Numbered from the stretch's first letter, positions 47,328-64,000 are shown. The stretch is 64,000 bases of DNA from Escherichia coli (GCF_044324785.1 NZ_CP172127.1), one strand, 5' to 3'. Program-made: numbers and translations. The notes: a model not told the origin generated them from the sequence alone.

Positions 47328-47403
47328 GCCCGGATAGCTCAGTCGGTAGAGCAGGGGATTGAAAATCCCCGTGTCCTTGGTTCGATTCCGAGTCCGGGCA
47401 CCA
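47328..47403 (+). tRNA. pheU: tRNA-Phe (GAA)
   Basis: gcccggatagctcagtcggtagagcaggggattgaaaatccccgtgtccttggttcgattccgagtccgggcacca, 76 nt with GAA anticodon; promoter-like ttgacg/tttaat upstream. Confidence 0.92.
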
Positions 47404-47579
47404 CTTTCACTTCCAGATTCATCTCCCGAACTCCACGAAACTCAAGTATAATCACATCGTTACAAGCAATCTGAACATCCTGAACTCCACCGAACTCTAC
47501 TGAACTCTCTCTCAATCAAGCGTTCATTGGGGGCACCGGTGGGGGCTCATTGTGTTCAGTCAGTTTCAGGAGCCCCCAT

Positions 47580-48764
47580 ATGGCACTTACAGCCAGACAG
47601 GTCGAAACAGCCAGACCTAAAGAAAAAGACTATAAACTCTCTGACGAACGTGGTTTATATCTGCTGGTAAAAACCACGGGTGCCCGCTACTGGCGGCTTA
47701 AATACCGGATAGCAGGAAAAGAGAAAAAACTGGCCCTCGGCGTCTATCCCGACGTCTCCCTTGCTGAAGCCAGAATCAAACGCGACGATGCCCGAAAAAT
47801 TATCTCCGAAGGTGGCGACCCGGGCGAAAAGAAGCGAAAGGAAAAACTCACTCAGAAAATCTCTGCCACCAATACGTTCCATGCCCTTGCTACGGAATGG
47901 CATCAGCATAAATCTTTGTCATGGTCTGAAAGTTACGCCAGAAGCGTACTGGAGGCTCTGGATAAAGATATTTTCCCGTATCTGGGCAAACGAAGCGTTA
48001 CTGATATCCTCCCGCTGGAAATGCTGGAAATTCTGCGCCGCATAGAAAAACGTGGCTCGCTGGAAAAACTTCGTAAGGTGCGTCAATACTGTAATCAGAT
48101 TTTTCGTTATGCCATCGCCACCGGACGAGCCACTGTCAATCCGGCATCTGAACTGACCAGTACGCTGGCGGCGCCAAAAGCTGCACATTTCCCCCACCTG
48201 AGAGCAGATGAGCTCCCTGTTTTTCTCCGGAAGCTCGCTGAATATCATGGCAGTCCTGTTACCCGCATGGCGACAAATCTGCTGCTTCTGACAGGCCTCA
48301 GAACGATTGAACTACGGTCCGCTGAATGGTCAGAAATTGATTTTGATAATGCCCTGTGGACAATCCCTGAAAGCCGCATGAAAATGCGACGTAAACATGT
48401 CGTACCACTGTCACGACAGGCCACTGACATTCTGCTGCAGCTCAAAACTTTCTCCGGACAATACCGGCTGGTTTTCCCGGGACGTTGTGATATCAACAAG
48501 CCAATGAGCGAAGCCAGCATCAATATGGTGCTCAAACGTATCGGTTACGATGGCAGGGCAACCGGTCATGGTTTTCGTCACACCATGAGTACCATTCTGC
48601 ACGAACAGGGCTTTAATTCTGCCTGGATTGAAATGCAGTTAGCTCATGTGGATAAAAATTCCATCAGGGGTACCTATAATCATGCCCTGTATCTCGATGG
48701 TCGCCGTGAAATGATGCAATGGTACGCTGACTACATTGATTCACTTTCCATCCAGGAGAGTTAA
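47580..48764 (+). CDS. P4-type tyrosine integrase adjacent to tRNA-Phe
   Basis: Start MALTARQVETARPKEKDYKLSDERGLYLLV with SD caggag upstream; catalytic R...HxxR...Y residues (HGFRHT, RGTYNHALY); N-terminal arm-binding-type domain. Confidence 0.88.
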   Translation: MALTARQVETARPKEKDYKLSDERGLYLLVKTTGARYWRLKYRIAGKEKKLALGVYPDVSLAEARIKRDDARKIISEGGDPGEKKRKEKLTQKISATNTFHALATEWHQHKSLSWSESYARSVLEALDKDIFPYLGKRSVTDILPLEMLEILRRIEKRGSLEKLRKVRQYCNQIFRYAIATGRATVNPASELTSTLAAPKAAHFPHLRADELPVFLRKLAEYHGSPVTRMATNLLLLTGLRTIELRSAEWSEIDFDNALWTIPESRMKMRRKHVVPLSRQATDILLQLKTFSGQYRLVFPGRCDINKPMSEASINMVLKRIGYDGRATGHGFRHTMSTILHEQGFNSAWIEMQLAHVDKNSIRGTYNHALYLDGRREMMQWYADYIDSLSIQES

Positions 48765-48849
48765 TTACACTTTGTCCTGAAATTATTCTCACAATCAATA
48801 ACCTTTCCCTCTGATCTTACAGATCAGAGGGATTCCGTTAACTTACAAT

Positions 48850-48889
48850 AAGTGATATTGGTTGTCTGGAGATTTAGGGGGACGGTCTA
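48850..48889. repeat. Solo IS2 left-end-like terminal repeat upstream of rafR
   Basis: aagtgatattggttgtctggagatttagggggacggtcta is near-identical to the terminal repeat of the complete IS2 at 58363-58402, in the same orientation. Confidence 0.5.
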
Positions 48890-48913
48890 CTATAATAATT
48901 AGCAGGAGATAAT

Positions 48914-49924
48914 ATGTCACTTAAGGCGATTGCCACTGCACTCGGAGTTTCTGTCACCACTGTCAGTCGGGCTCTTGGAGGCTATGCAGATGTGTCAGCT
49001 TCCACCCGTGCACGGGTGGAAGCTGAAGCTCGTCGACGCGGTTACCGTCCTAATACTCAGGCAAGAAGACTCAAAACCGGTAAAACCGATGCTGTCGGTC
49101 TGGTTTATCCTGGACGTGATGTGCCATTTAACAGTGGTGTTTTTATGGATATGGTCAGTTGCATCAGCCGGGAACTTGCTCACCATGATATTGACTTACT
49201 ACTGATAGCTGATGATGAGCATGCCGATTGCCACAGCTATATGCGGCTTGTTGAAAGTCGCAGGGTTGATGCTCTCATCATTGCACACACTCTGGATGAC
49301 GATCCCCGTATCACACACCTTCATAAAGCAGGTATTCCATTTCTGGCTCTTGGTCGGGTACCATCTGGTCTGCCCTGTGCGTGGTTTGACTTTGATAATC
49401 ATGCCGGGACTGGACAGGCAACCCAGAAACTGATTGCTTTGGGACATAAACGTATTGCATTGTTGAGTGAAGACACTTCACATAGCTATGTTGTTGCAAG
49501 ACGTCAGGGATGGCTTGATGCACTGAATGAGCATGAACTGGAAGATACATGGCTGCGGCTGGTTTCTCCCACACGGCGAGCAGGATATCAGGCCGTGATG
49601 GAGTTAATGTCACTACCGATACCACCAACAGCTATTATTACTGACAATGACCTGAGTGGAGATGGTGCTGCCATGGCACTGCAGTTGAGCGGTCGTCTTT
49701 CAGGAAAAGATGCGGTATCTCTGGTTGTATATGATGGTTTGCCACAGGACAGTATTATTGAGCTGGATGTGGCTGCAGTTATTCAGTCAACACGAAGCCT
49801 CGTTGGTCGCCAGATTTCCGAGATGATATATCAGATAATTACTGATTCATCATCAAAACCACTACAGGTTGTCTGGAACCCGGTATTTTATCCGGGAAAG
49901 ACGATTCATCCTCCTTGCTCCTGA
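48914..49924 (+). CDS. rafR: LacI-family raffinose operon repressor RafR
   Basis: N-terminal HTH (MSLKAIATALGVSVTTVSRALGG) plus periplasmic-binding-protein-like sugar domain; 336 aa; precedes rafA. Confidence 0.8.
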   Translation: MSLKAIATALGVSVTTVSRALGGYADVSASTRARVEAEARRRGYRPNTQARRLKTGKTDAVGLVYPGRDVPFNSGVFMDMVSCISRELAHHDIDLLLIADDEHADCHSYMRLVESRRVDALIIAHTLDDDPRITHLHKAGIPFLALGRVPSGLPCAWFDFDNHAGTGQATQKLIALGHKRIALLSEDTSHSYVVARRQGWLDALNEHELEDTWLRLVSPTRRAGYQAVMELMSLPIPPTAIITDNDLSGDGAAMALQLSGRLSGKDAVSLVVYDGLPQDSIIELDVAAVIQSTRSLVGRQISEMIYQIITDSSSKPLQVVWNPVFYPGKTIHPPCS

Positions 49925-49945
49925 TTTTTTTATCCAGCTCACATA

Positions 49946-49981
49946 TCCGAAACGTTTTGGTTGATACCCGAAACGTTTCGG
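49946..49981 (+). promoter_or_regulatory. Putative RafR operator pair flanking the rafA -35 box
   Basis: Near-palindrome tccgaaacgttttgg, then ttgata (-35-like), then the perfect palindrome ccgaaacgtttcgg, all in the rafR-rafA intergenic region. Confidence 0.55.
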
Positions 49982-50019
49982 ATCAACAGTAAGGCATCCC
50001 TGAGAAAGGAGAATGTCTT

Positions 50020-52146
50020 ATGGTTTCAAAGTACTGCAGACTGAGCAGTCCTCGCTCTGATTTAATTATTAAAACCCGTCCACATGCAGAAATTATCTGG
50101 TGGGGCTCTGCACTGAAACATTTCTCACCGGATGACTGTGCCAGCCTGGAAAGACCGGTTGCGAATGGTCGTCTGGATATTGATACGCCACTAACACTGA
50201 TGGCTGAAAATGCCCTGGGACTTTTTAGCTCTCCGGGACTGGAAGGACACAGGAATGGGCTGGATGCATCTCCTGTTTTTTATACAGTTGACGTGGAACA
50301 TACCGAAAACACTCTGAGACTTACCAGTGAAGATTCGGTAGCCGGCCTGCGTCTGGTCAGCGAGCTGGTGATGACGCCATCAGGAATTCTGAAAGTTCGT
50401 CATGCACTGACCAACCTCAGAGAGGGGGACTGGCAGATAAATCGTTTCGCCATCACTTTACCTTTAGCGGAACGTGCGGAAGAAGTCATGGCTTTTCACG
50501 GACGCTGGACTCGTGAATTTCAGCCGCACAGGGTACGTCTCACTCATGATGCTTTTGTTCTGGAAAATCGCAGAGGGCGGACATCTCATGAGCATTTTCC
50601 GGCGCTGATTGTCGGCACGCCAGGCTTCTCGGAACAACAGGGAGAGGTGTGGGCTGTGCATCTGGGGTGGAGTGGAAATCACCGCATGAGATGTGAGGCA
50701 AAAACTGACGGCAGGCGTTACGTTCAGGCTGAGGCTCTGTGGATGCCGGGTGAGAAGGCTCTCAGGAAGAATGAAACCCTGTACACCCCGTGGCTATATG
50801 CCTGCCACTCTGCGGATGGCCTGAATGGAATGAGTCAGCAATACCATCGTTTTTTGCGTGATGAAATTATCCGTTTCCCTGAGCAAAAACCCCGCCCTGT
50901 ACATCTCAATACCTGGGAAGGTATTTATTTCAATCACAATCCTGATTACATCATGCAGATGGCTGAGCGTGCAGCAGCACTGGGCGTTGAACGTTTCATT
51001 ATTGATGATGGCTGGTTTAAAGGACGTAACGATGACCGCGCGGCTCTGGGCGACTGGTATACCGATGAACAGAAATACCCGAACGGGCTGATGCCGGTTA
51101 TTAAACATGTGAAATCTCTCGGTATGGAATTTGGCATATGGGTTGAGCCGGAAATGATTAACCCGGATTCTGACCTGTTTCGTCTTCATCCTGACTGGGT
51201 ATTGTCAATGCCTGGATATTCCCAGCCAACCGGAAGATATCAGTATGTTCTTAACCTGAATATTCCAGAGGCCTTTGCTTACATTTATGAACGTTTCTTA
51301 TGGTTACTGGGAGAACATCCGGTTGATTATGTGAAATGGGACATGAATCGTGAGCTTGTACAGGCAGGGCATGAAGGCCGTGCGGCAGCAGATGCACAGA
51401 CCCGTCAGTTCTATCGATTGCTTGATCTCCTCCGTGAACGTTTTCCACATGTTGAGTTTGAGTCCTGTGCTTCCGGTGGGGGGCGTATTGACTTCGAAGT
51501 CCTGAAACGCACACACCGGTTCTGGGCATCTGACAATAATGATGCCCTGGAGCGCTGCACCATACAACGTGGCATGAGTTACTTTTTCCCTCCTGAGGTG
51601 ATGGGGGCGCATATTGGCCATCGCCGCTGCCATGCAACTTTCCGGCAGCACAGCATCGCTTTTCGTGGGCTGACGGCATTGTTCGGCCATATGGGGCTGG
51701 AGCTGGATCCGGTGGCCGCAGATGCGAAGGAATCTGACGGTTATCGCCGGTATGCCTTGCTCTATAAAGAATGGCGACAACTGATTCATACAGGAGTTCT
51801 CTGGCGTGTGGATATGCCAGATCCTTCGATACAGGTTCAGGGAGTCGTCAGCCCTGATCAGTCTCAGGCACTTTTTATGATCAGCCAGCTTGCAATGCCG
51901 GATTACACCTTACCAGGCATACTTCGTTTTCCCGGTCTGGCGGCGGAAGTGCGTTACCGGCTTCGGGTTATTGATCACCCGGACCTCCAGGTGGTTGGTG
52001 AAGGCGGTCATACCATGCGCAAATTACCTGTCTGGATGAATCAGAGCCTTGAGGCCAGTGGTGAATGGCTGGCACAGGGAGGGATTCAGCTCCCCGTACT
52101 GGATCCGGAGAGTGCGATTTTGATAGCACTTGAAAGAGCTGTGTGA
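50020..52146 (+). CDS. rafA: Alpha-galactosidase (GH36) RafA
   Basis: 708-aa ORF with GH36 architecture; SD aaaggag upstream; first gene of the rafABD cluster. Confidence 0.85.
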   Translation: MVSKYCRLSSPRSDLIIKTRPHAEIIWWGSALKHFSPDDCASLERPVANGRLDIDTPLTLMAENALGLFSSPGLEGHRNGLDASPVFYTVDVEHTENTLRLTSEDSVAGLRLVSELVMTPSGILKVRHALTNLREGDWQINRFAITLPLAERAEEVMAFHGRWTREFQPHRVRLTHDAFVLENRRGRTSHEHFPALIVGTPGFSEQQGEVWAVHLGWSGNHRMRCEAKTDGRRYVQAEALWMPGEKALRKNETLYTPWLYACHSADGLNGMSQQYHRFLRDEIIRFPEQKPRPVHLNTWEGIYFNHNPDYIMQMAERAAALGVERFIIDDGWFKGRNDDRAALGDWYTDEQKYPNGLMPVIKHVKSLGMEFGIWVEPEMINPDSDLFRLHPDWVLSMPGYSQPTGRYQYVLNLNIPEAFAYIYERFLWLLGEHPVDYVKWDMNRELVQAGHEGRAAADAQTRQFYRLLDLLRERFPHVEFESCASGGGRIDFEVLKRTHRFWASDNNDALERCTIQRGMSYFFPPEVMGAHIGHRRCHATFRQHSIAFRGLTALFGHMGLELDPVAADAKESDGYRRYALLYKEWRQLIHTGVLWRVDMPDPSIQVQGVVSPDQSQALFMISQLAMPDYTLPGILRFPGLAAEVRYRLRVIDHPDLQVVGEGGHTMRKLPVWMNQSLEASGEWLAQGGIQLPVLDPESAILIALERAV

Positions 52147-52208
52147 AGAGAGGTACGGAGCCTCAGCTCCGTCCTGTTTCTCAATATTATCCCGTGAGGG
52201 TAAGAATA

Positions 52209-53486
52209 ATGAATTCTGCAAGTACGCATAAAAATCCCGATTTCTGGATTTTCGGTCTGTTCTTCTTTCTCTACTTTTTCATCATGGCAACCTGTTTTCC
52301 GTTTTTGCCTGTATGGCTGTCCGATGTGGTCGGACTGAGTAAAACGGATACAGGTATAGTCTTTTCATGTCTTTCTCTGTTTGCCATCAGTTTCCAGCCA
52401 TTGCTTGGGGTCATATCAGATCGCCTGGGACTGAAAAAAAACCTGATCTGGAGTATCAGCCTGTTACTTGTATTTTTCGCCCCCTTTTTTTTATATGTAT
52501 TTGCGCCCCTGCTGCGCTTCAATATCTGGGCAGGCGCACTGACTGGCGGTGTCTTTATTGGTTTTGTGTTTTCTGCAGGTGCCGGAGCTATTGAAGCTTA
52601 TATAGAGCGGGTCAGTCGCAGTCGTGGATTTGAATACGGTAAAGCGAGGATGTTCGGGTGTCTGGGCTGGGCGTTATGTGCGGCTATGGCTGGAATGCTT
52701 TTTAATGTCGATCCTTCTCTGGTTTTCTGGATGGGGTCAGTAAGCGCATTATTGTTGCTTCTTCTGTTGTTTCTGGCGCGCCCCAGTACCAGCCAGACGG
52801 CAATGGTTATGAATACACTGGGTGCCAATTCTTCCCTGATTTCGACCAGAATGGTCTTCAGCCTGTTTCGCATGCGTCAGATGTGGATGTTTGTTCTCTA
52901 CACGATTGGTGTGGCCTGTGTCTATGATGTATTTGATCAGCAGTTTGCCACATTTTTTCGTTCATTCTTTGACACTCCTCAGGCAGGAATAAAAGCATTC
53001 GGATTTGCTACCACTGCGGGGGAGATTTGTAATGCCATTATCATGTTCTGTACACCATGGATAATTCATCGCATTGGTGCCAAAAATACCCTGCTTGTTG
53101 CGGGGGGAATTATGACCATCCGCATTACCGGTTCTGCTTTTGCCACCACCGCGACAGAAGTGGTGATTCTGAAAATGCTTCACGCTCTTGAAGTTCCATT
53201 TTTGCTGGTTGGGGCGTTCAAATATATTACGGCAGTGTTTGACACCCGACTGTCAGCGACCGTTTATTTAATAGGTTTTCAGTTTTCCAAACAACTTGCT
53301 GCAATACTTCTCTCTACCTTTGCCGGCCACCTGTATGATCGTATGGGATTCCAGAATACGTATTTTGTGCTCGGGATGATTGCTCTGACTGTTACCGTGA
53401 TATCAGTTTTCACGCTGAGTTCTTCCCGCGGGAGCGTACACCCTTCTGTAGAAAAAGCCCCTGCAGCGCATTCGGAGATTAACTGA
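52209..53486 (+). CDS. rafB: Raffinose permease RafB (LacY-like MFS symporter)
   Basis: Start inferred at MNSASTHKNPDFWIFGLFFFLYFFIMATCFPFLPVWL (LacY-like N-terminus), about 425 aa with 12 TM segments. Confidence 0.85.
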   Translation: MNSASTHKNPDFWIFGLFFFLYFFIMATCFPFLPVWLSDVVGLSKTDTGIVFSCLSLFAISFQPLLGVISDRLGLKKNLIWSISLLLVFFAPFFLYVFAPLLRFNIWAGALTGGVFIGFVFSAGAGAIEAYIERVSRSRGFEYGKARMFGCLGWALCAAMAGMLFNVDPSLVFWMGSVSALLLLLLLFLARPSTSQTAMVMNTLGANSSLISTRMVFSLFRMRQMWMFVLYTIGVACVYDVFDQQFATFFRSFFDTPQAGIKAFGFATTAGEICNAIIMFCTPWIIHRIGAKNTLLVAGGIMTIRITGSAFATTATEVVILKMLHALEVPFLLVGAFKYITAVFDTRLSATVYLIGFQFSKQLAAILLSTFAGHLYDRMGFQNTYFVLGMIALTVTVISVFTLSSSRGSVHPSVEKAPAAHSEIN

Positions 53487-54916
53487 TGAAACAGCGTCTT
53501 GCTTTGGCACAGTCTGCCCTTGAAAAACTTTGCGCACGTCGTGGTAATGCCTGGTACCCGATTTTTCATCTGGCTCCACCTGCCGGCTGGATGAATGATC
53601 CAAATGGCCTTATTTACTTCAATGGGCGTTACCATGCGTTCTTCCAGCATCATCCTGCAAGCGCATATCAGGGGCCAATGCACTGGGGGCATGCCACCAG
53701 TACCGACATGTTGCACTGGCAACACGAACCTGTCGCGCTGGCACCCGGAGATAAATATGATCGTGATGGCTGTTTTTCAGGGAGTGCCGTGGATGATGAT
53801 GGCGTGCTATCACTTATTTATACTGGTCATATTTGTCTCGATGATCGTGGTAATGACAGCATTATCCGTGAAGTACAGTGTCTGGCTACAAGTCATGATG
53901 GTATTCACTTTGAGAAGCAGGGCTGTGTGCTGACACCTCCGGAAGGTATAATGCATTTCCGTGATCCCAAAGTCTGGCACGAAGACGGCTCCTGGTGGAT
54001 GGTCATTGGTGCCCGGGACGCTTCTGACAATGGGCAAGTTCTGTTGTATCGCGGGACATCTTTGCGGGACTGGCATCTGGAGCATGTTCTTGCTCATTCC
54101 GCAGCCGGAAAAAGTTATATGTGGGAATGCCCCGATTTCTTCAGGTGTGGTAATTTTCACTGGCTGATGTTCTCACCACAGGGGATGCCCCCTTCCGGTT
54201 ATCGGTTCCGTAACCTTTTTCAGAGCGGTGTGTTGGCAGGGAGCTGGAAGCCTGGTTCTGTCTTTGCGCTGAAAGGGGGATTTGAAGAGCTGGATTATGG
54301 TCATGACTTTTATGCTCCACAGTCCATGCTGGCTGAGGACGGCAGGCGTATCATTATGGCATGGATGAATATGTGGGATTCACCCGTGCCCACCCGCAGT
54401 GAAGCCTGGGCAGGATGTCTGACGCTGCCCAGAGAGGTTTTTGAGCGCGATGGCCGGCTGTGCCAGCGACCTGTGCGTGAAGTCGAATCTCTGCGCAAAA
54501 AATGCCAGCCATTATCCCCTGTAAGGTTACAGGGTTTGCAATTACTGACCGAAAATGTACAGGCCGCAGAATTATTGGTGACGTGGCATACGGTTGACAG
54601 TCATGCGGAGCACTATGGCGTCCGCCTTGGAGACGGTCTGCGACTTTATGTGGATAATCAGGCCGGGCGACTGGTACTGTGGCGCTATTACCCTGAGGAA
54701 GGGTTGGATGGTTACCGCAGTGTTGAACTTCCTGATACAGAATATCTGACTCTTCGTATTTTCTTGGATCGTTCATCTGTTGAAGTGTTTGTTAACGATG
54801 GTGAGGCAACCTTATCAAGTCGTATTTATCCGCAAGCGGACTCGAGACAATTATCGTTATATGCCGCTCATGGCGATGCGATATTAACTGATGGCACTTT
54901 ATGGATGCTGACCTGA
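53486..54916 (+). CDS. rafD: Sucrose-6-phosphate hydrolase/invertase (GH32) RafD
   Basis: GH32 signature WMNDPNG plus the RDP and EC motifs; start overlaps the rafB stop (TGATG). Confidence 0.85.
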   Translation: MKQRLALAQSALEKLCARRGNAWYPIFHLAPPAGWMNDPNGLIYFNGRYHAFFQHHPASAYQGPMHWGHATSTDMLHWQHEPVALAPGDKYDRDGCFSGSAVDDDGVLSLIYTGHICLDDRGNDSIIREVQCLATSHDGIHFEKQGCVLTPPEGIMHFRDPKVWHEDGSWWMVIGARDASDNGQVLLYRGTSLRDWHLEHVLAHSAAGKSYMWECPDFFRCGNFHWLMFSPQGMPPSGYRFRNLFQSGVLAGSWKPGSVFALKGGFEELDYGHDFYAPQSMLAEDGRRIIMAWMNMWDSPVPTRSEAWAGCLTLPREVFERDGRLCQRPVREVESLRKKCQPLSPVRLQGLQLLTENVQAAELLVTWHTVDSHAEHYGVRLGDGLRLYVDNQAGRLVLWRYYPEEGLDGYRSVELPDTEYLTLRIFLDRSSVEVFVNDGEATLSSRIYPQADSRQLSLYAAHGDAILTDGTLWMLT

Positions 54917-55110
54917 GACATATCGATATCAGTATTTTTTCTGACATTATCTGTCATTACTTTGCCAGTACACATTAATTATCTTTGCTGTGTGCTTTTG
55001 GTAATGTGTTGCGATTATATATACCAGTCTGGTGAAGAATATGAATGGTATTTTGTGTTGATACAGAGAATATAAGAGTACCCACATTTGTTTTTATTTA
55101 AGGGGGTAAA

Positions 55111-56505
55111 ATGAATAAGTTACTTTTGGGTTTATCTCTTTTTTTATTACTGGAATACAATGCGTGTGCAGCAAAAACAGGGGGGCTAACGCTTGAACAA
55201 AGAATGGCATTGCTGGAAGAACGCCTGGAAGCTGCAGAAAAAAGGGCGGAAAAAGCAGAAAGAATGTTAAAGAGTTTTGATATAGAACAACATTCTGAAA
55301 TACGTCAAATTAGTTCAGAGCAGAATAAAAAAGATGCTAACAGCTATGCAGTAGTTGAGTCAACAAAAGAAAAAACATCTTCTCCAGGTTTTCTGCTCTC
55401 TGGTTACAATGATTTGAAGTTTTATGGTGATGTGGAGTTTAATATAGATGCTGCCAGTAAACCCGGTCAGTTAGTAATGATAAGTTCCGGGGCGAACAGT
55501 GAGTCAGTGAATGAACGGTGGGACCTTAATGGCCGTATTCTATTAGGTTTTGACGGTACCCGTAAGCTTGATAATGGTTATTTCGCTGGATTTTCAGCAC
55601 AACCACTGGCGGATATGCACGGTTCAGTGAATATTGATGATGCATTATTCTTTTTTGGAAAAGATGACGAGTGGAAAGTGAAAGTCGGTCGTTTTGAAGC
55701 TTACGATATGTTCCCTCTAAATCAGGATACTTTCATTGAGTATTCCGGTAATACAGCTAATGATATTTATGCTGATGGCCGTGGTTATATCTATATGATG
55801 AAAGAGGGACGCGGTCGTTCTGACGCTGGTGGTAATTTCCTCATCAGTAAACAACTCGATAACTGGTATTTTGAGTTAAACACGTTACTTGAAGACGGAA
55901 CATCTTTATATAATAACGGTAATTATCATGGACGATATATGGAGCAGCAGAAAAATGTCGCTTATCTGCGCCCGGTAATTGCCTGGTCGCCAACGGAAGA
56001 ATTCACAGTCTCCGCAGCGATGGAAGCGAACGTGGTAAAAAATGCTTATGGCTATACCGATAATAAGGGGAATTTTGTCGATCAGTCCAATCGTTCCGGT
56101 TATGGTATTAGCATGACATGGAACGGTCTGAAAACAGATCCGGAAAATGGCATCGTGGTTACTCTTAATACCGCCTATTTGGATGCCAGTAATGAGAAAG
56201 ATTTCACTGCCAGTATTAATGCTCTGTGGAAACGTTTCGAACTGGGTTATATCTACGCACATAATAAGATTGATGAATTTAGTGGTGTCGTGTGTAATAA
56301 TGGTTGCTGGATTGATGGTGAAGGAATATACAACATTCACACCATTCATGCATCTTATCAGTTTGCTAATGTGATGGATATGGAGAACTTTAATATTTAC
56401 CTCGGGGCTTATTACTCAATTCTGGATAGTAACTGTAGATATAGTAATTGTGACATTACCGATGATCGTTACGGTGCCCGATTACGTTTCAAATACTTTT
56501 TTTGA
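55111..56505 (+). CDS. rafY: Raffinose glycoporin RafY
   Basis: 464-aa protein with signal peptide, N-terminal coiled-coil (LEERLEAAEKRAEKAERMLK) and beta-rich body ending in an aromatic residue (RFKYFF), typical of outer-membrane porins. Confidence 0.8.
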   Translation: MNKLLLGLSLFLLLEYNACAAKTGGLTLEQRMALLEERLEAAEKRAEKAERMLKSFDIEQHSEIRQISSEQNKKDANSYAVVESTKEKTSSPGFLLSGYNDLKFYGDVEFNIDAASKPGQLVMISSGANSESVNERWDLNGRILLGFDGTRKLDNGYFAGFSAQPLADMHGSVNIDDALFFFGKDDEWKVKVGRFEAYDMFPLNQDTFIEYSGNTANDIYADGRGYIYMMKEGRGRSDAGGNFLISKQLDNWYFELNTLLEDGTSLYNNGNYHGRYMEQQKNVAYLRPVIAWSPTEEFTVSAAMEANVVKNAYGYTDNKGNFVDQSNRSGYGISMTWNGLKTDPENGIVVTLNTAYLDASNEKDFTASINALWKRFELGYIYAHNKIDEFSGVVCNNGCWIDGEGIYNIHTIHASYQFANVMDMENFNIYLGAYYSILDSNCRYSNCDITDDRYGARLRFKYFF

Positions 56506-58562: not shown

Positions 58563-58952
58563 TCATCTGAATTTTCGGTGACCTTCAAGTTTTATATCGT
58601 TCATTTTATCCAGAGACTCACGTAATGATTCTATATTCCCGTCCTCAACTTTCTTTTTTGCAATATTGATTTCATGTTGTAGTTTTTTTAACTCTTCCTT
58701 ATAACTATCTACAGAAACTTTATCATTAACATCTATCTTTTCAGGAATAATATTCATAGAAGAATCTACAGATTTATCCATCATTTCAAGAGCATTTAAT
58801 AGTGATGATTTATCATTGGAAGATTGTAGAATACTCATACTTTTGGCAAGAGACTGCATGTTTTTATCCAGGCCGGAAGCCAAAGATACGTTGCTGAGAG
58901 ATAAAAAAATAGCTAGTACAGCACCTGAGAAAAATACCTTTTGTTTTTTCAT
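58563..58952 (-). CDS. Secreted cytochrome b562-like four-helix-bundle protein (divergent CybC homolog)
   Basis: Start MKKQKVFFSGAVLAIFLSLSNVSLA (signal peptide); mature region aligns with cytochrome b562 including the Met heme ligand (SGLDKNM vs ADLEDNM) and C-terminal His (LEGHRKFR vs NAYHQKYR). Confidence 0.6.
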   Translation of the reverse strand: MKKQKVFFSGAVLAIFLSLSNVSLASGLDKNMQSLAKSMSILQSSNDKSSLLNALEMMDKSVDSSMNIIPEKIDVNDKVSVDSYKEELKKLQHEINIAKKKVEDGNIESLRESLDKMNDIKLEGHRKFR

Positions 58953-59368
58953 TAATATATTCCTGTTCAAAGTTGATTATAGTTATGTCAATTTAAGTTT
59001 ATTATTATGATTTTTTATTTTTGTACTATGAATCTCCTGTATGCTTATATGTGCAGAAAATCTCATTTTATCAAGAAGAATATCAAATTTTCTCCGATAC
59101 TTCTACATACTCCATCATTCATGCTCCTTTTATCCGTGCACCGTAAAACCCCGTCCTTCAGCGGGGGATATAAGGCGCTGTTTTCCACCTAACCAGGTGT
59201 CTGCTGCTATTCAATGTATTGGCGGATGACGGATGCCGCCCGTTGAAGCAGGACCCCTCGTCCTTAGGGCGTGGAGGATGTCAAAATGAAAACTTGTGGT
59301 ATGAATCAATCCATTCATCATCCTTTCGGATCATTGCATTCAGTATAACGCTGGGTAATGACTCCAAC

Positions 59369-59872
59369 TTATTGATAGTGTTTTATGTTCAGATAATGCC
59401 CGATGACTTTGTCATGCAGCTCCACCGATTTTGAGAACGACAGCGACTTCCGTCCCAGCCGTGCCAGGTGCTGCCTCAGATTCAGGTTATGCCGCTCAAT
59501 TCGCTGCGTATATCGCTTGCTGATTACGTGCAGCTTTCCCTTCAGGCGGGATTCATACAGCGGCCAGCCATCCGTCATCCATATCACCACGTCAAAGGGT
59601 GACAGCAGGCTCATAAGACGCCCCAGCGTCGCCATAGTGCGTTCACCGAATACGTGCGCAACAACCGTCTTCCGGAGACTGTCATACGCGTAAAACAGCC
59701 AGCGCTGGCGCGATTTAGCCCCGACATAGCCCCACTGTTCGTCCATTTCCGCGCAGACGATGACGTCACTGCCCGGCTGTATGCGCGAGGTTACCGACTG
59801 CGGCCTGAGTTTTTTAAGTGACGTAAAATCGTGTTGAGGCCAACGCCCATAATGCGTGCACTGGCACGACAT
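59369..59872 (-). CDS. insB: IS1 InsB
   Basis: 167 aa, [37 protein letters not shown]. Confidence 0.92.
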
Positions 59873-60066
59873 CCGACGCCATTCATGGCCATATCAATGA
59901 TTTTCTGGTGCGTACCGGGTTGAGAGGCGGTGTAAGTGAACTGTAGTTGCCATGTTTTACGGCAATGAGAGCAGAGATAGCGCTGATGTCCGGCAGTGCT
60001 TTTGCCGTTACGCACCACGCCTTCAGGAGCGGAGCAGGAAGGACATCTGATGGAAATGGAAGCCAC
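59791..60066 (-). CDS. insA: IS1 InsA
   Basis: 91 aa, [40 protein letters not shown]. Confidence 0.92.
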
Positions 60067-60329
60067 GCAAGCACCTTAAAATCACCATCATACACTAAAT
60101 CAGTAAGTTGGCACCATTACCTGACCAAGCTTCCTCTATTGCGGCACCTGATTGCATCAATATCGAAAGTGATAAGATCCTCTCACTAGCAGGGCATGAC
60201 AAGTGTAACTGCTGATTTGTTAGCCTGTTTTAAGTTTTTTAAGATCAATTATTTCTCATTTTTTGACTTTATTGCTAGCCGTGAAAATGCAAAGCCTATA
60301 GGATACAAAAATTACAATTTGTAGGTTTT

Positions 60330-60836
60330 GTGAGTCATATGAAGGCAACCAATATAGACCCTCAACTGCTTGAAAAAGCCACGAGTATCTTTGCTGAGTT
60401 GGGCTTACCTATTGAGCAGGCTATTAACGTCTTTTTAGCTAAATCCGTTCAAGCCAAAGGTTTTCCGTTTTCTGTTGCTCTTGAAAATGAAGTAGAGACA
60501 CGGGAAGTTGCACAAACGCAACACAATATCAGCAATGCAGAGATAACCGAAGCTATCCAAGACTTGGTTGAACATGCTCTACCACTGAGTGAAATAGAAA
60601 ACCTCACGCAGCTAACCTATTGTCGCAACATTTTTGGGTTGTCATTCCCCGTGCTCAAACTGGCTAAATCATCACGGCCAGAAGACATTCGCAGTGCAGC
60701 CAAAGATGCCAAAGAGCGAAACCGCTACTCCACCACTAAAGTGGCCCAGCGAGATGAAAAAACCTATGTTATTTGCACCCAATGGACCGACAGACATCGT
60801 TCTGCATTTTGCCGTTGGCAAGCCATCTTTAGCTAG
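60330..60836 (+). CDS. RelB/DinJ-like ribbon-helix-helix protein with an uncharacterised C-terminal extension
   Basis: N-terminal 50 aa (KATNIDPQLLEKATSIFAELGLPIEQAINVFLAKSVQAKGFPFSV) follow the DinJ pattern; the remaining 110 aa or so are unassigned; alternative ATG start at 60339; AT-rich; no toxin gene adjacent. Confidence 0.5.
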   Translation: MSHMKATNIDPQLLEKATSIFAELGLPIEQAINVFLAKSVQAKGFPFSVALENEVETREVAQTQHNISNAEITEAIQDLVEHALPLSEIENLTQLTYCRNIFGLSFPVLKLAKSSRPEDIRSAAKDAKERNRYSTTKVAQRDEKTYVICTQWTDRHRSAFCRWQAIFS

Positions 60837-60902
60837 AACGCAAAATAATAACCAAACAATACACTGATTTTTTAACGATTTAACTTCATTTAGGTAGTAT
60901 CA

Positions 60903-62882
60903 ATGAACTTACAAGACAAAGAACAAAGCGCCAAACTCTCCAGTGCTATTTGGCGTATGGCAGATGATTTATGGGGTGATTTCAAACACACCGATTTTGC
61001 GCGGATTATCCTGCCATTTTTGCTACTGCGTCGTATTGAATGCGTGTTAGAACCCACCCGTGAGGAAGTTCGTAAGTTCTATCTGGCCGAAAAACAATCC
61101 GGCATAGACCTTGGTTTAGTGTTGCCAGAAATTGCGGGATTCGCCTTTTACAACACCAGTGAATATAGCCTAGAAACCTTAGGCGCGTCAGACACCGGCG
61201 ACAACCTAGAACACTACATCAGCCAGTTCAGCAAAAACGTTCGTACCATCTTTGATGAGTTTAAATTTGGTCAAACCATAGAAGATCTGGAAAAAGCCAA
61301 GTTGCTGTATCGCATGGTAAACCATTTTGCCAACCTCGACTTGCATCCTGATGTAGTGTCTGACCGCGTATTATCAGATGCTTATGAAGAGCTGATTCTA
61401 AAGTTCGCCAGTTCGGTTAATGAAAAGGCCGGGGAATTTATGACCCCGCGTGATGCCGTGCGTCTTGCCACCAAACTGGTGCTGGCGGCGGATGAAGATA
61501 TCTTTAGTGAAAAGGGTGTGATCCGCACCATCTATGACCCAACCTGTGGCACGGGCGGTTTCCTTTCCGATGCCATTAGCCAAATTGAAGAAATGGGCAG
61601 CAGCGCTAAAGTCGTGCCTTTTGGTCAAGAGCTCGACCCCGCGACCCATGCCATGGCGCTGACCAATATGATGATCCGCGGTTTTGATGCCAATAACATC
61701 AAGCAAGGCAACACCTTATCAGACGATCAGTTACGTGCCGACAAGTTTCACTACGGCCTTGCCAACCCGCCATTTGGCATTAAGTGGGAAAAAGCCAAGA
61801 AAGAAGTAGAACGTGAGCACAAACAGCTCAAATACGCCGGACGCTTTGGGCCAGGCCTGCCGAGTATTTCTGATGGTTCAATGCTGTTTTTACTGCACTT
61901 GGTATCAAAAATGGAAACGCCGGAAAATGGTGGTGGCCGAGTGGGTATAGTCCTTTCTGGCTCGCCACTGTTTAATGGCGATGCAGGCTCAGGCCCATCA
62001 GAAATCCGCCGTTGGCTGCTAGAACAAGACTTAGTCGAAGCGATTGTTGCCCTGCCAACCGATATGTTCTTCAACACCGGCATTGGCACCTACATCTGGA
62101 TTTTGACTAACCATAAAGAGCCAAGACGCAAGAATCAGGTGCAACTGATTAACTTGGCAGATATTTGGACTCCCATGCGTAAATCGCAAGGCGATAAGCG
62201 CAAGTACCTGAGTGATGAACAGATTGACGATATTGTCCGTGCGTACGATGGCTTTGAAGCCAGTGACAACTGTAAGATCTTCCAGACTACTGATTTTGCC
62301 TACCGTAAAGTCACCATTCAGCGTCCACTGCGTGCCAAACTAGATATTACCGCTGCGGGCATTGCTGCATTTGTGCAGCAAGATACGTTTAAAAAACTCA
62401 AACCAGAGCAACAAGCGGCATGGGTACAATACCTCACCGATAACCTTGGCCTTCAGCCTTATGAATGGGCACGTTTGGCGGTTAAGAAGAATAACAATAA
62501 GGGTGACTTTGGTAAGTGCTCAAAAGCACTGGCTACGGCCTTAACTGCGCACTTTGTAAAAATTGATCCGCAATTTGAGCCTGCACTGGATGAAAAAGGC
62601 CAAGTGATCGCCGACCCTAAACTCAAAGACACCGAAAGCATTCCTTTTGACCGCGACGTTGAAGATTACTTCGCACAAGAGGTGCTGCCACATGTACCGG
62701 ATGCCTTTATTGATCACTCAGTGCGTGATGAAAAAGACGGCGAAGTGGGCATTGTCGGTTATGAAATTAACTTTAACCGCTATTTCTACCAATACGTGCC
62801 ACCACGCGAGTTGAGTGTGATTGATCGTGAGCTAAAAGCATGTGAAGCGCGCATTCAGGCTCTGCTGAATGAGGTGGCGTAA
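60903..62882 (+). CDS. hsdM: Type I restriction-modification N6-adenine DNA methyltransferase subunit HsdM
   Basis: 659 aa with AdoMet motif YDPTCGTGGFL and catalytic NPPFG; stop overlaps the hsdS start (TAATG). Confidence 0.88.
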   Translation: MNLQDKEQSAKLSSAIWRMADDLWGDFKHTDFARIILPFLLLRRIECVLEPTREEVRKFYLAEKQSGIDLGLVLPEIAGFAFYNTSEYSLETLGASDTGDNLEHYISQFSKNVRTIFDEFKFGQTIEDLEKAKLLYRMVNHFANLDLHPDVVSDRVLSDAYEELILKFASSVNEKAGEFMTPRDAVRLATKLVLAADEDIFSEKGVIRTIYDPTCGTGGFLSDAISQIEEMGSSAKVVPFGQELDPATHAMALTNMMIRGFDANNIKQGNTLSDDQLRADKFHYGLANPPFGIKWEKAKKEVEREHKQLKYAGRFGPGLPSISDGSMLFLLHLVSKMETPENGGGRVGIVLSGSPLFNGDAGSGPSEIRRWLLEQDLVEAIVALPTDMFFNTGIGTYIWILTNHKEPRRKNQVQLINLADIWTPMRKSQGDKRKYLSDEQIDDIVRAYDGFEASDNCKIFQTTDFAYRKVTIQRPLRAKLDITAAGIAAFVQQDTFKKLKPEQQAAWVQYLTDNLGLQPYEWARLAVKKNNNKGDFGKCSKALATALTAHFVKIDPQFEPALDEKGQVIADPKLKDTESIPFDRDVEDYFAQEVLPHVPDAFIDHSVRDEKDGEVGIVGYEINFNRYFYQYVPPRELSVIDRELKACEARIQALLNEVA

Positions 62883-64000
62883 TGAATGCTGGCAACATAG
62901 TAGATGCTTTCGTATCTGACTCGAAATGGAACTCAGTACCAGCTAAACGTTTATTTACGAGTAGCAAAGAAATCAATCAAGGAATGAAAGAATCTAATCG
63001 TCTTGCACTAACAATGAAAGGTGTCATAAACCGCTCGTTAGACGATTTACAAGGACTTCAATCTTCTGATTACTCTGTTTATCAGATTTTTGAAAAAGAT
63101 GACTTAGTTTTTAAGCTCATAGATCTTGAAAATATAAAGACTAGCCGAGTGGGGATTGTGCATGAACGAGGAATAATGAGCCCTGCATACATCCGTGTTT
63201 CAGCGAGTTCAAATAGCATCTACCCAAGGTTCTATTACTGGTACTTTTTTGCTCTATACCTAACCAATATTTATAACAAACTGGGTGGAGGAGTTCGTCA
63301 GAACCTAACAGCTGGTGATCTTTTAGAAATACCTGTTCCACTGATTGATATTTCATTACAGAAGCAGGTTAGCACATTCCTTGATCGCGAAACCCAGCGC
63401 ATCGACAGTCTGATCGAGGAAAAGCAGACCTTTATTAAGCTGCTCAAAGAAAAACGCCAAGCACTGATCAGCCATGTGGTCACAAAGGGGCTCTATCCCA
63501 ATGTGGAGATGCAGGACTCTGGCATCGAGTGGATTGGGCAAGTGCCGAAGCATTGGGAAGTCAAAAAGATAAAGCATATTTGCTCCAACTTTATGTATGG
63601 AACCTCTCAAGACTGTAACCAGTCTGATGTTGGCTATCCTGTTCTCAGGATACCAAACATCAAGAGTACCAATGTTGATTTTGAAGATCTCAAATATGCA
63701 AATATCAGTGATGTTGATGCTTTAACTTATCTTTTATCAAGAGGCGACATTTTAGTCATCAGAACTAACGGTAACCCTAATCTGGTCGGCCAAAGCGCGC
63801 TTTTTGATTCAAATGGGCAGTATTTATTTGCGTCGTACCTAATAAAGTTAACACCAAAGCAAGGAGTGGATACTAGCTTCTTAGTGGAAGCGATGAACTC
63901 ACTATCTGTTCGTCAAGCATTAACATTTCAGTCAAGAACATCGGTAGGTAACTACAACCTGAGCATTCCTTCACTAGCTAATACAAGTATTGCTATCCCA
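62882..64000 (+). CDS. hsdS: Type I restriction-modification specificity subunit HsdS, 5' partial (runs off the window end)
   Basis: Open frame from ATG 62882 to the window end (373 codons, manual translation); first variable target-recognition domain, conserved central segment FLDRETQRIDSLIEEKQTFIKLLKEKRQALISHVVTKGL, then a second variable domain. Confidence 0.8.
   Translation, partial: MNAGNIVDAFVSDSKWNSVPAKRLFTSSKEINQGMKESNRLALTMKGVINRSLDDLQGLQSSDYSVYQIFEKDDLVFKLIDLENIKTSRVGIVHERGIMSPAYIRVSASSNSIYPRFYYWYFFALYLTNIYNKLGGGVRQNLTAGDLLEIPVPLIDISLQKQVSTFLDRETQRIDSLIEEKQTFIKLLKEKRQALISHVVTKGLYPNVEMQDSGIEWIGQVPKHWEVKKIKHICSNFMYGTSQDCNQSDVGYPVLRIPNIKSTNVDFEDLKYANISDVDALTYLLSRGDILVIRTNGNPNLVGQSALFDSNGQYLFASYLIKLTPKQGVDTSFLVEAMNSLSVRQALTFQSRTSVGNYNLSIPSLANTSIAIP

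What the first reader, a model, noticed from the sequence alone, without database searches (positions are those of the whole stretch)
60903..64000. AT-rich type I R-M module with hsdM-hsdS order and no hsdR upstream, bounded on the left by IS1
hsdM (NPPFG, DPTCGTGG) and hsdS are translationally coupled through a TAATG overlap, and hsdS shows the conserved central repeat between two variable recognition domains. The slot upstream, where hsdR often sits, is instead occupied by the RelB/DinJ-fusion gene and IS1. Either hsdR lies downstream beyond the window or this is an R-less methylation-only or non-canonical module. The whole segment from about 58400 onward is visibly more AT-rich than the backbone, indicating foreign origin. 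The recognition domains are not ones I can assign to a known specificity.
Basis: partly seen in the sequence, partly recalled or inferred. Interest (0 to 1): 0.55.

Follow-up and report, generated by a model that had tools for sequence, protein, structure and literature searches.

The report
Complete type I restriction system, cut by window
This is an ordinary, complete type I restriction-modification operon (hsdM-hsdS-hsdR) acquired from a Vibrio-like mobile island; its nuclease gene starts 168 bases past the window end and is followed by a Kiwa-like defence gene pair.

Summary
hsdM (60903-62882, 659 aa, DPTCGTGG and NPPF motifs) overlaps hsdS (62882 to the window end) through TAATG. IS1 (59354-60121) lies to the left, and the segment has 44% GC against 52% for the backbone.

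The "R-less" reading is wrong. The same 3.8 kb occurs at 99% identity or more in 76 of 5,426 complete E. coli genomes. All 76 also match at least 80% of the 9.7 kb continuation. There hsdS ends 168 nt past the window, and a 1078-aa hsdR with nuclease and helicase motifs starts at another TAATG.

M-S-R is the fixed gene order of this HsdM family: 59 of 59 related loci across several phyla.

Two more TAATG junctions link hsdR to a divergent kwaA-kwaB (Kiwa-like) pair, followed by rhuM and mobI. This matches the published cargo layout of IncC-mobilizable MGIVchHai6-like islands. Two Vibrio genomes carry the same cassette (about 89% nucleotide identity) with both hsdS recognition domains exchanged.

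A type I-KwaAB cluster of another type I family is already published from Shewanella.

Verdict: a new member of a known kind, of low interest. The recognition sequence remains unknown.

The parts
59354..60121 (-). IS1, a complete 768-bp copy that forms the left boundary of the segment shared among E. coli carriers
   Evidence: The insA/insB ORFs are and the terminal repeats were read. The 9 bp on the two sides differ (ataacgctg versus tgaccaagc), so there is no target duplication. The shared block between the leuX-island copy (L001) and the tRNA-Phe-island copy (L002) starts exactly at this IS1 end.
60291..64000 (+). In-window part of the 9.6-kb Vibrio-like defence cassette (RelB-fusion gene, hsdM, hsdS, then hsdR-kwaA-kwaB-rhuM beyond the window)
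   Evidence: blastn of the E. coli locus against Vibrio loci L006 and L031 gives 87-92% nucleotide identity. The match starts at L002:22292 (window 60291) and ends at the rhuM stop. GC is 0.44.
60338..60836 (+). Gene for a 165-aa protein: an N-terminal RelB/DinJ-type ribbon-helix-helix domain fused to a conserved C-terminal domain of unknown fold. It is the first gene of the cassette and a probable regulator (inferred).
   Evidence: Pfam RelB 5.4e-5; TIGR02384 scores 41 bits, below its cutoff. No toxin gene is adjacent. Homologues head other defence-like operons. The AlphaFold C-domain is confident but has no PDB counterpart.
60903..62882 (+). hsdM, the type I N6-adenine DNA methyltransferase subunit (659 aa)
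   Evidence: Pfam HsdM_N plus N6_Mtase. PADLOC MTase_I PDLC03029 1.9e-243 over the full length. Motifs DPTCGTGG (nt 61536-61559) and NPPF (nt 61764-61775). RefSeq WP_001053122.1.
62880..62884 (+). TAATG stop/start overlap coupling hsdM to hsdS
   Evidence: Read directly. The same TAATG occurs at the hsdS/hsdR, hsdR/kwaA and kwaA/kwaB junctions beyond the window.
62882..64000 (+). hsdS, the specificity subunit: the first 372 of 428 codons. The gene ends 168 nt past the window.
   Evidence: Two Methylase_S domains. PADLOC Specificity_I 4e-97. The full gene is WP_000991122.1 in identical loci.
62882..63367 (+). hsdS target recognition domain 1 (variable)
   Evidence: There is no nucleotide homology to the Vibrio alleles here, and the whole-protein identity to them is 41-43%.
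63368..63553 (+). hsdS central conserved region (residues about 163-224)
   Evidence: It is nearly identical in the E. coli and Vibrio alleles. It corresponds to the 92%-identical nucleotide island at L002:25378-25574.
63554..64000 (+). hsdS target recognition domain 2 (variable), almost complete in the window
   Evidence: It diverges from both Vibrio alleles. It falls in the Pfam Methylase_S match at residues 222-395.

Best explanation
The finding is the first two genes of a complete, classical three-subunit type I restriction-modification operon, hsdM-hsdS-hsdR. The window end cuts it inside hsdS.

Inferred mechanism, from established knowledge of type I enzymes:
- An M2S1 complex methylates adenines in a bipartite target set by the two recognition domains of HsdS.
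- With two HsdR subunits it becomes an ATP-driven translocating endonuclease that cuts unmodified incoming DNA far from the site.

All gene junctions are TAATG overlaps, so the subunits are probably made from one message by translational coupling (inferred). The same coupling continues into a divergent kwaA-kwaB (Kiwa-like) pair. This makes a five-gene defence operon, followed by rhuM and mobI.

The cassette is horizontally acquired cargo of an MGIVchHai6-like mobilizable island of Vibrio-type origin. It now sits, IS-flanked, in tRNA-associated islands of about 1.4% of sequenced E. coli. Its specificity has been changed by exchange of both hsdS recognition domains.

Shown here: gene content, motifs, order, conservation and origin. 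Inferred: enzymatic activity, co-transcription and the recognition sequence.
For: Subunit identity:
- HsdM and HsdS domains and motifs.
- hsdR lies immediately downstream in identical loci.
- HsdR has HSDR_N, ResIII/SWI2_SNF2 and T1R_D3-like domains.
- HsdR has a D-x15-ELK nuclease motif, GSGKT, DEAH and QTLSRLNR.

Conservation in E. coli:
- 76 of 76 carriers of the 3.8 kb also match at least 80% of the 9.7 kb continuation; 75 at 99% identity or more.
- 11 genomes match the window's own left context over 12 kb, and all carry it.

Operon structure and family:
- There are four TAATG junctions.
- M-S-R order holds in 59 of 59 related loci from Gamma- and Alphaproteobacteria, Campylobacterota, Chloroflexi, Bacillota and Verrucomicrobia.

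Origin:
- Two Vibrio loci have the same gene order. Protein identities are M 93-94%, R 96%, KwaA/B 96-97%, but S only 41-43%.
- Nucleotide homology breaks exactly at the two recognition domains.
- In Vibrio L006 the cassette lies in an island next to mnmE (trmE) and an integrase.
- Type I R-M cargo with rhuM beside mobI is the published layout of MGIVchHai6-like islands (PMC7449626, PMC4958241).

Kiwa-like pair:
- PADLOC KwaA 9e-16 and KwaB 7e-14.
- RefSeq names the first gene 'KwaA family protein'.
- The AlphaFold model of the KwaB-like protein (pLDDT 91.9) has KwaB structures as its only significant PDB matches.
Against: - The window itself stops at 64000, so hsdR in this particular genome is inferred from identical and near-identical genomes, not read.
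- No activity, methylation motif or transcript data exist for this cassette. No paper cites its protein accessions.
- No promoter or terminator signal above chance was found.
- IS1 sits 216 bp upstream of the first gene, and only 48 bp upstream of that gene are shared with Vibrio. Native regulation may therefore be altered.
- HsdM and HsdR score below the NCBIfam equivalog and subfamily cutoffs: 101 versus 243 bits, and 166 versus 285 bits. This marks a divergent type I lineage.
- At least two E. coli copies are interrupted by IS elements.
Confidence: 0.9

Rival explanations
1. R-less, methylation-only or otherwise non-canonical M+S module. HsdM and HsdS would act as an orphan methyltransferase without a nuclease partner.
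For: Only that no hsdR is visible inside the window. The gene upstream is not hsdR.
Against: hsdR with intact nuclease and motor motifs follows hsdS by a TAATG overlap in identical loci. All 76 E. coli genomes with this sequence match at least 80% of the continuation. In 59 of 59 relatives with enough sequence, hsdR lies downstream.
Confidence: 0.03
2. A silent or decaying remnant. The cassette is intact in sequence but is no longer expressed or active in E. coli, as leftover cargo of a degraded mobilizable island cut off from its promoter by IS1.
For: The island backbone (int-xis-DUF927) is absent around the E. coli copies. The cassette is flanked by IS1, IS3-family, ISVsa5 and IS5 fragments. 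IS1 has no target duplication, which indicates rearrangement. No promoter-like site above chance was found. Some copies are hit by IS1203 or IS21.
Against: The two copies read in full have intact reading frames for all seven genes. 75 of 76 copies are at least 99% identical across several islands and host lineages. A restriction system that lost methylation but kept HsdR would be lethal, so both halves are expected to stay functional or decay together.
Confidence: 0.1
3. An integrated composite system. The type I enzyme and the Kiwa-like pair would work as one machine or an obligate partnership, rather than as two neighbouring systems. Examples would be shared stoichiometric expression, or mutual cover against DNA-mimic anti-restriction proteins.
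For: - TAATG coupling runs from hsdR into kwaA and kwaB.
- Close relatives of the pair (83-88% identical KwaB) were found directly downstream of three different restriction systems. Proteus and Shewanella have a 4-nt hsdS/kwaA overlap.
- A type I-KwaAB-DarTG cluster is co-transcribed in Shewanella (PMC12016545).
- Kiwa is inhibited by the DNA mimic Gam and benefits from a second Gam target (PMC11785009).
- From established knowledge, type I enzymes are classic targets of DNA mimics.
Against: - The pair is separated by 112-116 nt from its upstream restriction gene in Vibrio and Alteromonas.
- More distant relatives (35% and 45% identity) keep the KwaA-like partner but, in the sequence available, have no restriction system nearby.
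- 57 of 59 loci of this HsdM family have no Kiwa genes.
- Canonical Kiwa works alone (PMC11785009).
Confidence: 0.1

Closest known systems
Type IC restriction-modification systems (EcoR124I)
   Same: A three-subunit type I enzyme with gene order hsdM-hsdS-hsdR. HsdS has two recognition domains around a central conserved region.
   Different: Homology is only remote. HsdR against EcoR124I HsdR (2w00) gives E 1.8e-4 and 22.6 bits. HsdM matches at 2.4e-26 over the methyltransferase core only. HsdM here is 659 aa, not 520. hsdR here is joined to hsdS by a TAATG overlap. From my own knowledge, EcoR124I hsdR has its own promoter.
   Same: The same three subunit types and the same catalytic motifs.
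   Different: From my own knowledge, EcoKI has hsdR upstream with its own promoter. Here hsdR is downstream in all 59 related loci. EcoKI HsdM matches only at 1.5e-13.
Type I R-M + KwaAB + DarTG cluster of Shewanella putrefaciens CN32 island GItrmA (PMC12016545), with the equivalents seen here in Proteus and Shewanella yicC islands
   Same: A type I operon is directly followed by a Kiwa-like pair whose KwaB is 83-88% identical to the E. coli one in the Proteus and Shewanella loci read here. It is carried on an integrative island. In that paper the cluster is co-transcribed and protects E. coli against T1, EEP, T4 and T7.
   Different: It belongs to a different type I family with the opposite gene order: R-M-S, with a 544-545-aa M carrying an Eco57I-type domain. 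It is followed by DarTG rather than RhuM, and it has no RelB-fusion leader gene.
Cargo region of MGIVchHai6-like IncC-mobilizable genomic islands (PMC7449626, PMC4958241)
   Same: A type I hsd system sits with a rhuM-like gene next to mobI. The closest non-E. coli copy (Vibrio L006) lies in an island beside mnmE/trmE with an integrase.
   Different: In E. coli the int-xis-DUF927 backbone and the trmE, yicC or dusA attachment context are missing. The cassette lies in tRNA-Phe or tRNA-Leu islands between IS elements.
Kiwa defence system (KwaA/KwaB of E. coli ECOR49 and O55:H7; PMC11785009)
   Same: A two-gene unit encoding a small membrane protein plus a protein of about 280 aa. KwaB structures are the only significant structural matches of that protein. 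PADLOC Kiwa profiles match both proteins.
   Different: Identity to solved KwaB is about 11%. There is no Pfam DUF4868 match and no sequence or profile hit to PDB. The TM-score is only 0.36-0.40. KwaA scores below the NCBIfam cutoff. Here the pair is translationally coupled to hsdR.

Membership tests
Type I restriction-modification system (classical, three subunits) | HsdM: N6-adenine methyltransferase with SAM-binding motif I and catalytic motif IV (NPPF/Y), plus an HsdM N-terminal domain | tested here: met
   Pfam HsdM_N 4.8e-22 and N6_Mtase 1.3e-57. DPTCGTGG at residue 212 and NPPF at residue 288. PADLOC MTase_I 1.9e-243. It scores below the TIGR00497 equivalog cutoff, 101 versus 243 bits.
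Type I restriction-modification system (classical, three subunits) | HsdS with two variable target recognition domains separated and followed by conserved regions | tested here: met
   Two Methylase_S domains. Alignment with Vibrio alleles shows conserved residues about 163-224 and about 395-428, with two variable blocks. Nucleotide homology breaks at both variable blocks.
Type I restriction-modification system (classical, three subunits) | HsdR with a PD-(D/E)xK nuclease domain and an SF2 helicase-like motor, encoded in the same locus | tested here: met
   It lies outside the window but is present in identical loci. HSDR_N, ResIII/SWI2_SNF2 and T1R_D3-like domains. Motifs D145-x15-ELK, GSGKT at 327, DEAH at 440 and QTLSRLNR at 728. 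All 76 carriers match at least 80% of the continuation.
Type I restriction-modification system (classical, three subunits) | Methylation of a bipartite asymmetric target, and ATP-dependent translocation with cleavage far from the site | not testable with these tools
   This needs methylome sequencing and restriction assays. No publication on these proteins was found.
Type IC family (EcoR124I-like) | Gene order hsdM-hsdS-hsdR | tested here: met
Type IC family (EcoR124I-like) | Close sequence relatedness of the subunits to EcoR124I. Families are defined by cross-hybridisation and complementation. | tested here: not met
   HsdR against 2w00 gives E 1.8e-4 and 22.6 bits, with no stretch passing on its own. 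HsdM gives 2.4e-26 over the catalytic core only.
Type IA family (EcoKI-like) | hsdR upstream of hsdM-hsdS, and subunits closely related to EcoKI | tested here: not met
   No hsdR lies upstream. EcoKI HsdM matches only at 1.5e-13. hsdR is downstream in 59 of 59 relatives.
Orphan (R-less) type I methyltransferase module | No hsdR in the locus | tested here: not met
   hsdR follows hsdS by a 1-nt overlap in identical copies. All 76 carriers match the continuation.
Kiwa (for the pair coupled to hsdR, outside the window) | KwaA: a small integral membrane protein of the KwaA family | tested here: met
   PADLOC KwaA 9.3e-16 across the whole protein. RefSeq names it 'KwaA family protein'. A precomputed Pfam PF28043 KwaA match exists on orthologues. 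Hydropathy shows three clear hydrophobic regions plus a weaker stretch read by eye at about residues 93-106. NCBIfam KwaA scores only 25 bits against a cutoff of 100, and the Pfam copy used here gave no hit.
Kiwa (for the pair coupled to hsdR, outside the window) | KwaB: KwaB fold with a DUF4868 DNA-binding domain | tested here: inconclusive
   For: PADLOC KwaB 7.1e-14. Foldseek's top six PDB hits are all KwaB (E 2e-6 to 2e-5, probability 1.0), and the next hit has E 0.086. Against: no Pfam DUF4868 hit, no sequence or profile hit to PDB, TM 0.36-0.40, 11% identity.
MGIVchHai6-like mobilizable genomic island | Cargo layout: type I hsd system with rhuM adjacent to mobI | tested here: met
   rhuM and mobI(A/C) lie directly after the operon. 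The layout is described in PMC7449626 and PMC4958241.
MGIVchHai6-like mobilizable genomic island | Backbone int-xis-DUF927 genes with integration at trmE, yicC or dusA | tested here: not met
   The E. coli copies lie in tRNA-Phe or tRNA-Leu islands between IS elements, without that backbone. The Vibrio L006 copy does lie beside mnmE/trmE with an integrase.
Type II toxin-antitoxin RelB/DinJ antitoxin (annotation of the upstream gene) | An adjacent cognate toxin gene (RelE/YafQ type) | tested here: not met
   The next gene is hsdM, and no small toxin ORF is present. In relatives the next gene is an SNF2 helicase, an AAA ATPase or rhuM. The RHH domain itself is only weakly matched: Pfam RelB 5.4e-5, and TIGR02384 41 bits against a cutoff of 45.65.

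The most novel reading that the evidence does not exclude
Two linked ideas remain possible.

1. The five TAATG-coupled genes (hsdM-hsdS-hsdR-kwaA-kwaB) form a functional partnership rather than a chance neighbourhood. Type I enzymes and KwaB are both blocked by phage DNA-mimic proteins. Co-expressing them from one message could split such inhibitors between two targets, as was shown for Kiwa with RecBCD. The recurrence of this Kiwa clade directly behind three unrelated restriction systems would then reflect selection.

2. The RelB-like fusion protein that heads this and other defence operons may be a new class of defence-operon regulator.
Probability: 0.12. Interest if true: 0.55.

Novelty: new member of a known kind. 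Interest (0 to 1): 0.2.

Why it matters
For the finding as written it matters little. It is a standard, already annotated type I system whose nuclease gene simply fell outside the window.

It is useful as a worked example that M-S-R order is the rule in this widespread long-HsdM family. A missing upstream hsdR is therefore not a sign of an orphan methylase.

Practical value:
- The cassette is a barrier to DNA transfer and phage in about 1.4% of sequenced E. coli.
- Its recognition sequence is unknown.
- It shows recent transfer of Vibrio-type mobilizable-island cargo into E. coli.

The side observations are modest leads for defence-system biology:
- A Kiwa clade recurrently placed behind restriction systems.
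- An antitoxin-like leader gene in front of different defence operons.

Tried and rejected
Searches that led nowhere:
- Papers citing the six RefSeq protein accessions: none.
- A published methylome of a carrier strain such as SMS-3-5: nothing relevant. The recognition sequence therefore stays unknown, and REBASE was not available.
- Promoter and terminator scans over the cassette: fewer hits than in shuffled sequence.
- PDB by sequence and by profile for the KwaB-like protein: no hits. Pfam: no hit. Only the fold comparison linked it to KwaB.

Ideas considered and rejected:
- An R-less module.
- The RelB-fusion gene as a family-wide partner of this HsdM family. It is absent upstream of hsdM in all but the two Vibrio loci.
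- The Kiwa-like pair as strictly tied to restriction systems. The two distant relatives examined have no restriction system in the sequence available.
- Membership in type IA or type IC.
Full report
**1. The observation**

The window holds a 659-aa ORF at 60903-62882 on the plus strand.
- It contains DPTCGTGG (residues 212-219) and NPPF (residues 288-291).
- It matches Pfam HsdM_N (4.8e-22) and N6_Mtase (1.3e-57).
- It matches the PADLOC type I methyltransferase profile PDLC03029 end to end at 1.9e-243.

Its TAA stop shares a base with the ATG of the next ORF, giving TAATG at 62880-62884. That ORF stays open to base 64000.
- It has two Methylase_S domains and a PADLOC Specificity_I match of 4e-97.

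A complete 768-bp IS1 lies at 59354-60121. A gene for a RelB/DinJ-like fusion protein lies at 60338-60836.

GC content is 0.441 for 60100-64000 and 0.517 for the first 54.5 kb. By gene it is 0.476 for hsdM and 0.40 for hsdS. IS1 itself is not AT-rich.

The description is therefore accurate.

**2. What lies beyond the window**

- The last 3.8 kb of the window is present at 99% identity or more in 76 of 5,426 complete E. coli genomes, always on the chromosome.
- Eleven genomes also match at least 80% of the preceding 12 kb at 99.8-100% identity.
- In one of them, strain 23CRST007 (locus L002; window position = L002 position + 37999), RefSeq annotates the following:
  - hsdS of 428 aa, ending 168 nt past the window;
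  - hsdR of 1078 aa;
  - a 184-aa 'KwaA family protein';
  - a 280-aa hypothetical protein;
  - rhuM;
  - on the other strand, mobI(A/C).
- The leuX-island copy in strain S30 has the same content.
- All 76 carriers match at least 80% of the 9.7 kb. Seventy-five are at 99% identity or more, and at least two are interrupted by IS elements.

HsdR looks catalytically complete.
- It has HSDR_N, ResIII/SWI2_SNF2 and T1R_D3-like domains.
- It has a D-x15-ELK nuclease motif, GSGKT, DEAH and QTLSRLNR.

The junctions hsdM/hsdS, hsdS/hsdR, hsdR/kwaA and kwaA/kwaB are all TAATG.

The 'R-less' alternative is therefore refuted for every sequenced copy.

**3. Gene order in the family**

A scan of one genome per species with HsdM found 273 relatives, and 79 loci were kept. 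They come from Gamma- and Alphaproteobacteria, Campylobacterota, Chloroflexi, Bacillota and Verrucomicrobia.
- In all 59 loci where an HsdR relative was detected, the order is M, S, R on one strand.
- Of the 20 loci without HsdR, 19 have under 3 kb of sequence after hsdM, and one (L064) has about 7 kb.
- In 25 of the 59, more than 1 kb is inserted between hsdS and hsdR. In three of these a rhuM relative sits there.

An empty upstream slot is thus the norm for this family.

The family is remote from solved type I enzymes.
- HsdM best E is 2.9e-33; EcoR124I gives 2.4e-26 and EcoKI 1.5e-13.
- HsdR against EcoR124I gives E 1.8e-4.
- Both proteins fall below the NCBIfam cutoffs.

It is therefore neither type IA nor type IC by relatedness, although it shares the IC gene order.

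**4. Origin**

Only two of the 79 loci, both Vibrio, share the whole arrangement: RelB-fusion gene, hsdM, hsdS, hsdR, kwaA, kwaB, rhuM.
- Protein identities are M 93-94%, R 96%, KwaA/B 96-97%, RelB-fusion 88%, and HsdS only 41-43%.
- Nucleotide homology (87-92%) runs from 48 bp upstream of the RelB-fusion gene to the rhuM stop.
- It is broken exactly at the two hsdS recognition domains, and the central conserved region survives as a 197-bp island.

This is the classic signature of specificity change by recognition-domain exchange.

In Vibrio sp. ES.051 the cassette lies in an island directly after yidC-mnmE (trmE), with an integrase and a replicative-helicase-like gene.

Published work describes MGIVchHai6-like islands.
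- They are mobilized by IncC plasmids and integrate at trmE, yicC or dusA.
- They carry mainly type I R-M cargo.
- They have a rhuM-like gene next to mobI (PMC7449626).
- The hsd system lies between mobI and pinE (PMC4958241).

The E. coli segment has this cargo layout but lacks the island backbone.
- The block shared by the tRNA-Phe and tRNA-Leu island copies starts exactly at the IS1 end and stops after mobI and one small ORF.
- IS1 has no target duplication.

I infer that IS-mediated rearrangement moved a decayed island fragment between E. coli islands.

**5. The coupled Kiwa-like pair**

- PADLOC Kiwa profiles match both proteins: KwaA 9.3e-16 and KwaB 7.1e-14.
- The KwaB-like protein has no Pfam hit and no PDB sequence or profile hit.
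- An AlphaFold model built on 63 diverse relatives (pLDDT 91.9) has six KwaB chains as its only significant PDB matches. Their E-values are 2e-6 to 2e-5, and the next hit has E 0.086. TM-scores are only 0.36-0.40.
- The family is large: 534 cluster representatives.
- Members 82-95% identical occur in Plesiomonas, Aeromonas, Shewanella, Vibrio, Alteromonas and Proteus, oddly named 'ATP F0F1 synthase synthase'.

Every close relative examined sits directly behind a restriction system.
- Proteus and Shewanella: a different type I family in R-M-S order, with a 4-nt hsdS/kwaA overlap, followed by DarTG.
- Vibrio and Alteromonas: a C5-methylase plus DUF2357/PDDEXK_7 system, with a 112-116-nt gap.

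More distant relatives (45% and 35% identity) keep the KwaA-like partner. In the sequence available they have no restriction neighbour; one of the two sits on a 4-kb contig with only about 400 bp upstream.

The R-M-S / KwaAB / DarTG arrangement is published for Shewanella putrefaciens CN32 (PMC12016545).
- DefenseFinder calls the pair Kiwa there.
- The 9.9-kb cluster is co-transcribed.
- It protects E. coli against T1, EEP, T4 and T7.

The Kiwa mechanism paper does not mention a restriction link (PMC11785009).

I conclude that the pair is an autonomous module. In one gammaproteobacterial clade it travels behind exchangeable restriction modules. A true functional partnership remains possible but unproven.

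**6. The upstream gene**

The RelB-like fusion protein is not a partner of the HsdM family at large.

Its 53 homologue clusters are all gammaproteobacterial and conserve both domains. They head different operons:
- an SNF2 helicase-DUF4391-methylase-ATPase-Res operon in V. parahaemolyticus;
- an AAA ATPase-RNA ligase operon in Aeromonas;
- rhuM alone in Dickeya.

No toxin gene is adjacent, so the 'antitoxin' label is doubtful. A ribbon-helix-helix regulator is the more likely role (inferred). The confident C-terminal domain of the model has no structural match.

**7. Verdict**

The finding is a real but ordinary, complete type I restriction-modification operon truncated by the window edge.
- Shown: gene content, motifs, order, coupling signals, distribution and origin.
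- Inferred: enzymatic function, co-transcription and the recognition sequence.

It is a new, uncharacterised member of a known kind, and interest is low. The modest leads are the recurrent placement of this Kiwa clade behind restriction systems and the antitoxin-like leader gene.

Noticed in passing
window 60338-60836; loci L091/L092 9001-9498, L093 9001-9492, L094 10001-10501: The gene annotated as a RelB/DinJ antitoxin has no toxin neighbour. Its two-domain homologues sit as the first gene of different defence-like operons: an SNF2 helicase-methylase-Res operon in V. parahaemolyticus, an AAA ATPase-RNA ligase operon in Aeromonas, and rhuM alone in Dickeya. The conserved C-terminal domain (motif NRYST...ICTQWTDRHR) has no Pfam or PDB match.
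   Followed up: partly
beyond the window: L002 29405-30801 (equivalent to window 67404-68800): A divergent kwaA-kwaB (Kiwa-like) pair is joined to hsdR and to each other by TAATG overlaps. Close relatives lie directly behind three unrelated restriction systems in Vibrio, Alteromonas, Proteus and Shewanella.
   Followed up: yes
protein family of L002 29959-30798 (P0001-P0120): Most named database entries for the KwaB-like protein carry the meaningless name 'ATP F0F1 synthase synthase'. This is evidently a propagated annotation error.
   Followed up: no
window 59354-60121: IS1 has no target-site duplication (ataacgctg on one side, tgaccaagc on the other). The block shared by the tRNA-Phe-island and tRNA-Leu-island copies of the cassette begins exactly at this IS1 end. 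This suggests IS1-mediated relocation of the cassette between islands.
   Followed up: partly
window 58563-58970 (minus strand): A very AT-rich (GC about 0.34) gene for a cytochrome b562-like protein (NCBIfam PRK15058, 65.8 bits, below the cutoff of 130) is stranded between IS2 and IS1.
   Followed up: no
window about 47328-56505: tRNA-Phe, an integrase, then a carbohydrate-use cluster (LacI-family regulator, alpha-galactosidase, MFS transporter, GH32 hydrolase, carbohydrate porin) form the first part of the same island. These are the RefSeq annotations of the identical strain 23CRST007.
   Followed up: no
L001 34894-36489 (E. coli S30, leuX island): Strain S30 carries a second, canonical kwaA-kwaB pair. 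RefSeq annotates these as anti-phage proteins KwaA and KwaB. They lie about 6 kb downstream of the Kiwa-like pair, in the same island.
   Followed up: no
loci L006-L084 (for example L040, L044, L054): In 25 of 59 related type I loci, more than 1 kb is inserted between hsdS and hsdR. In three of them a rhuM relative occupies that space, so rhuM is a recurrent companion of this type I family in more than one position.
   Followed up: partly
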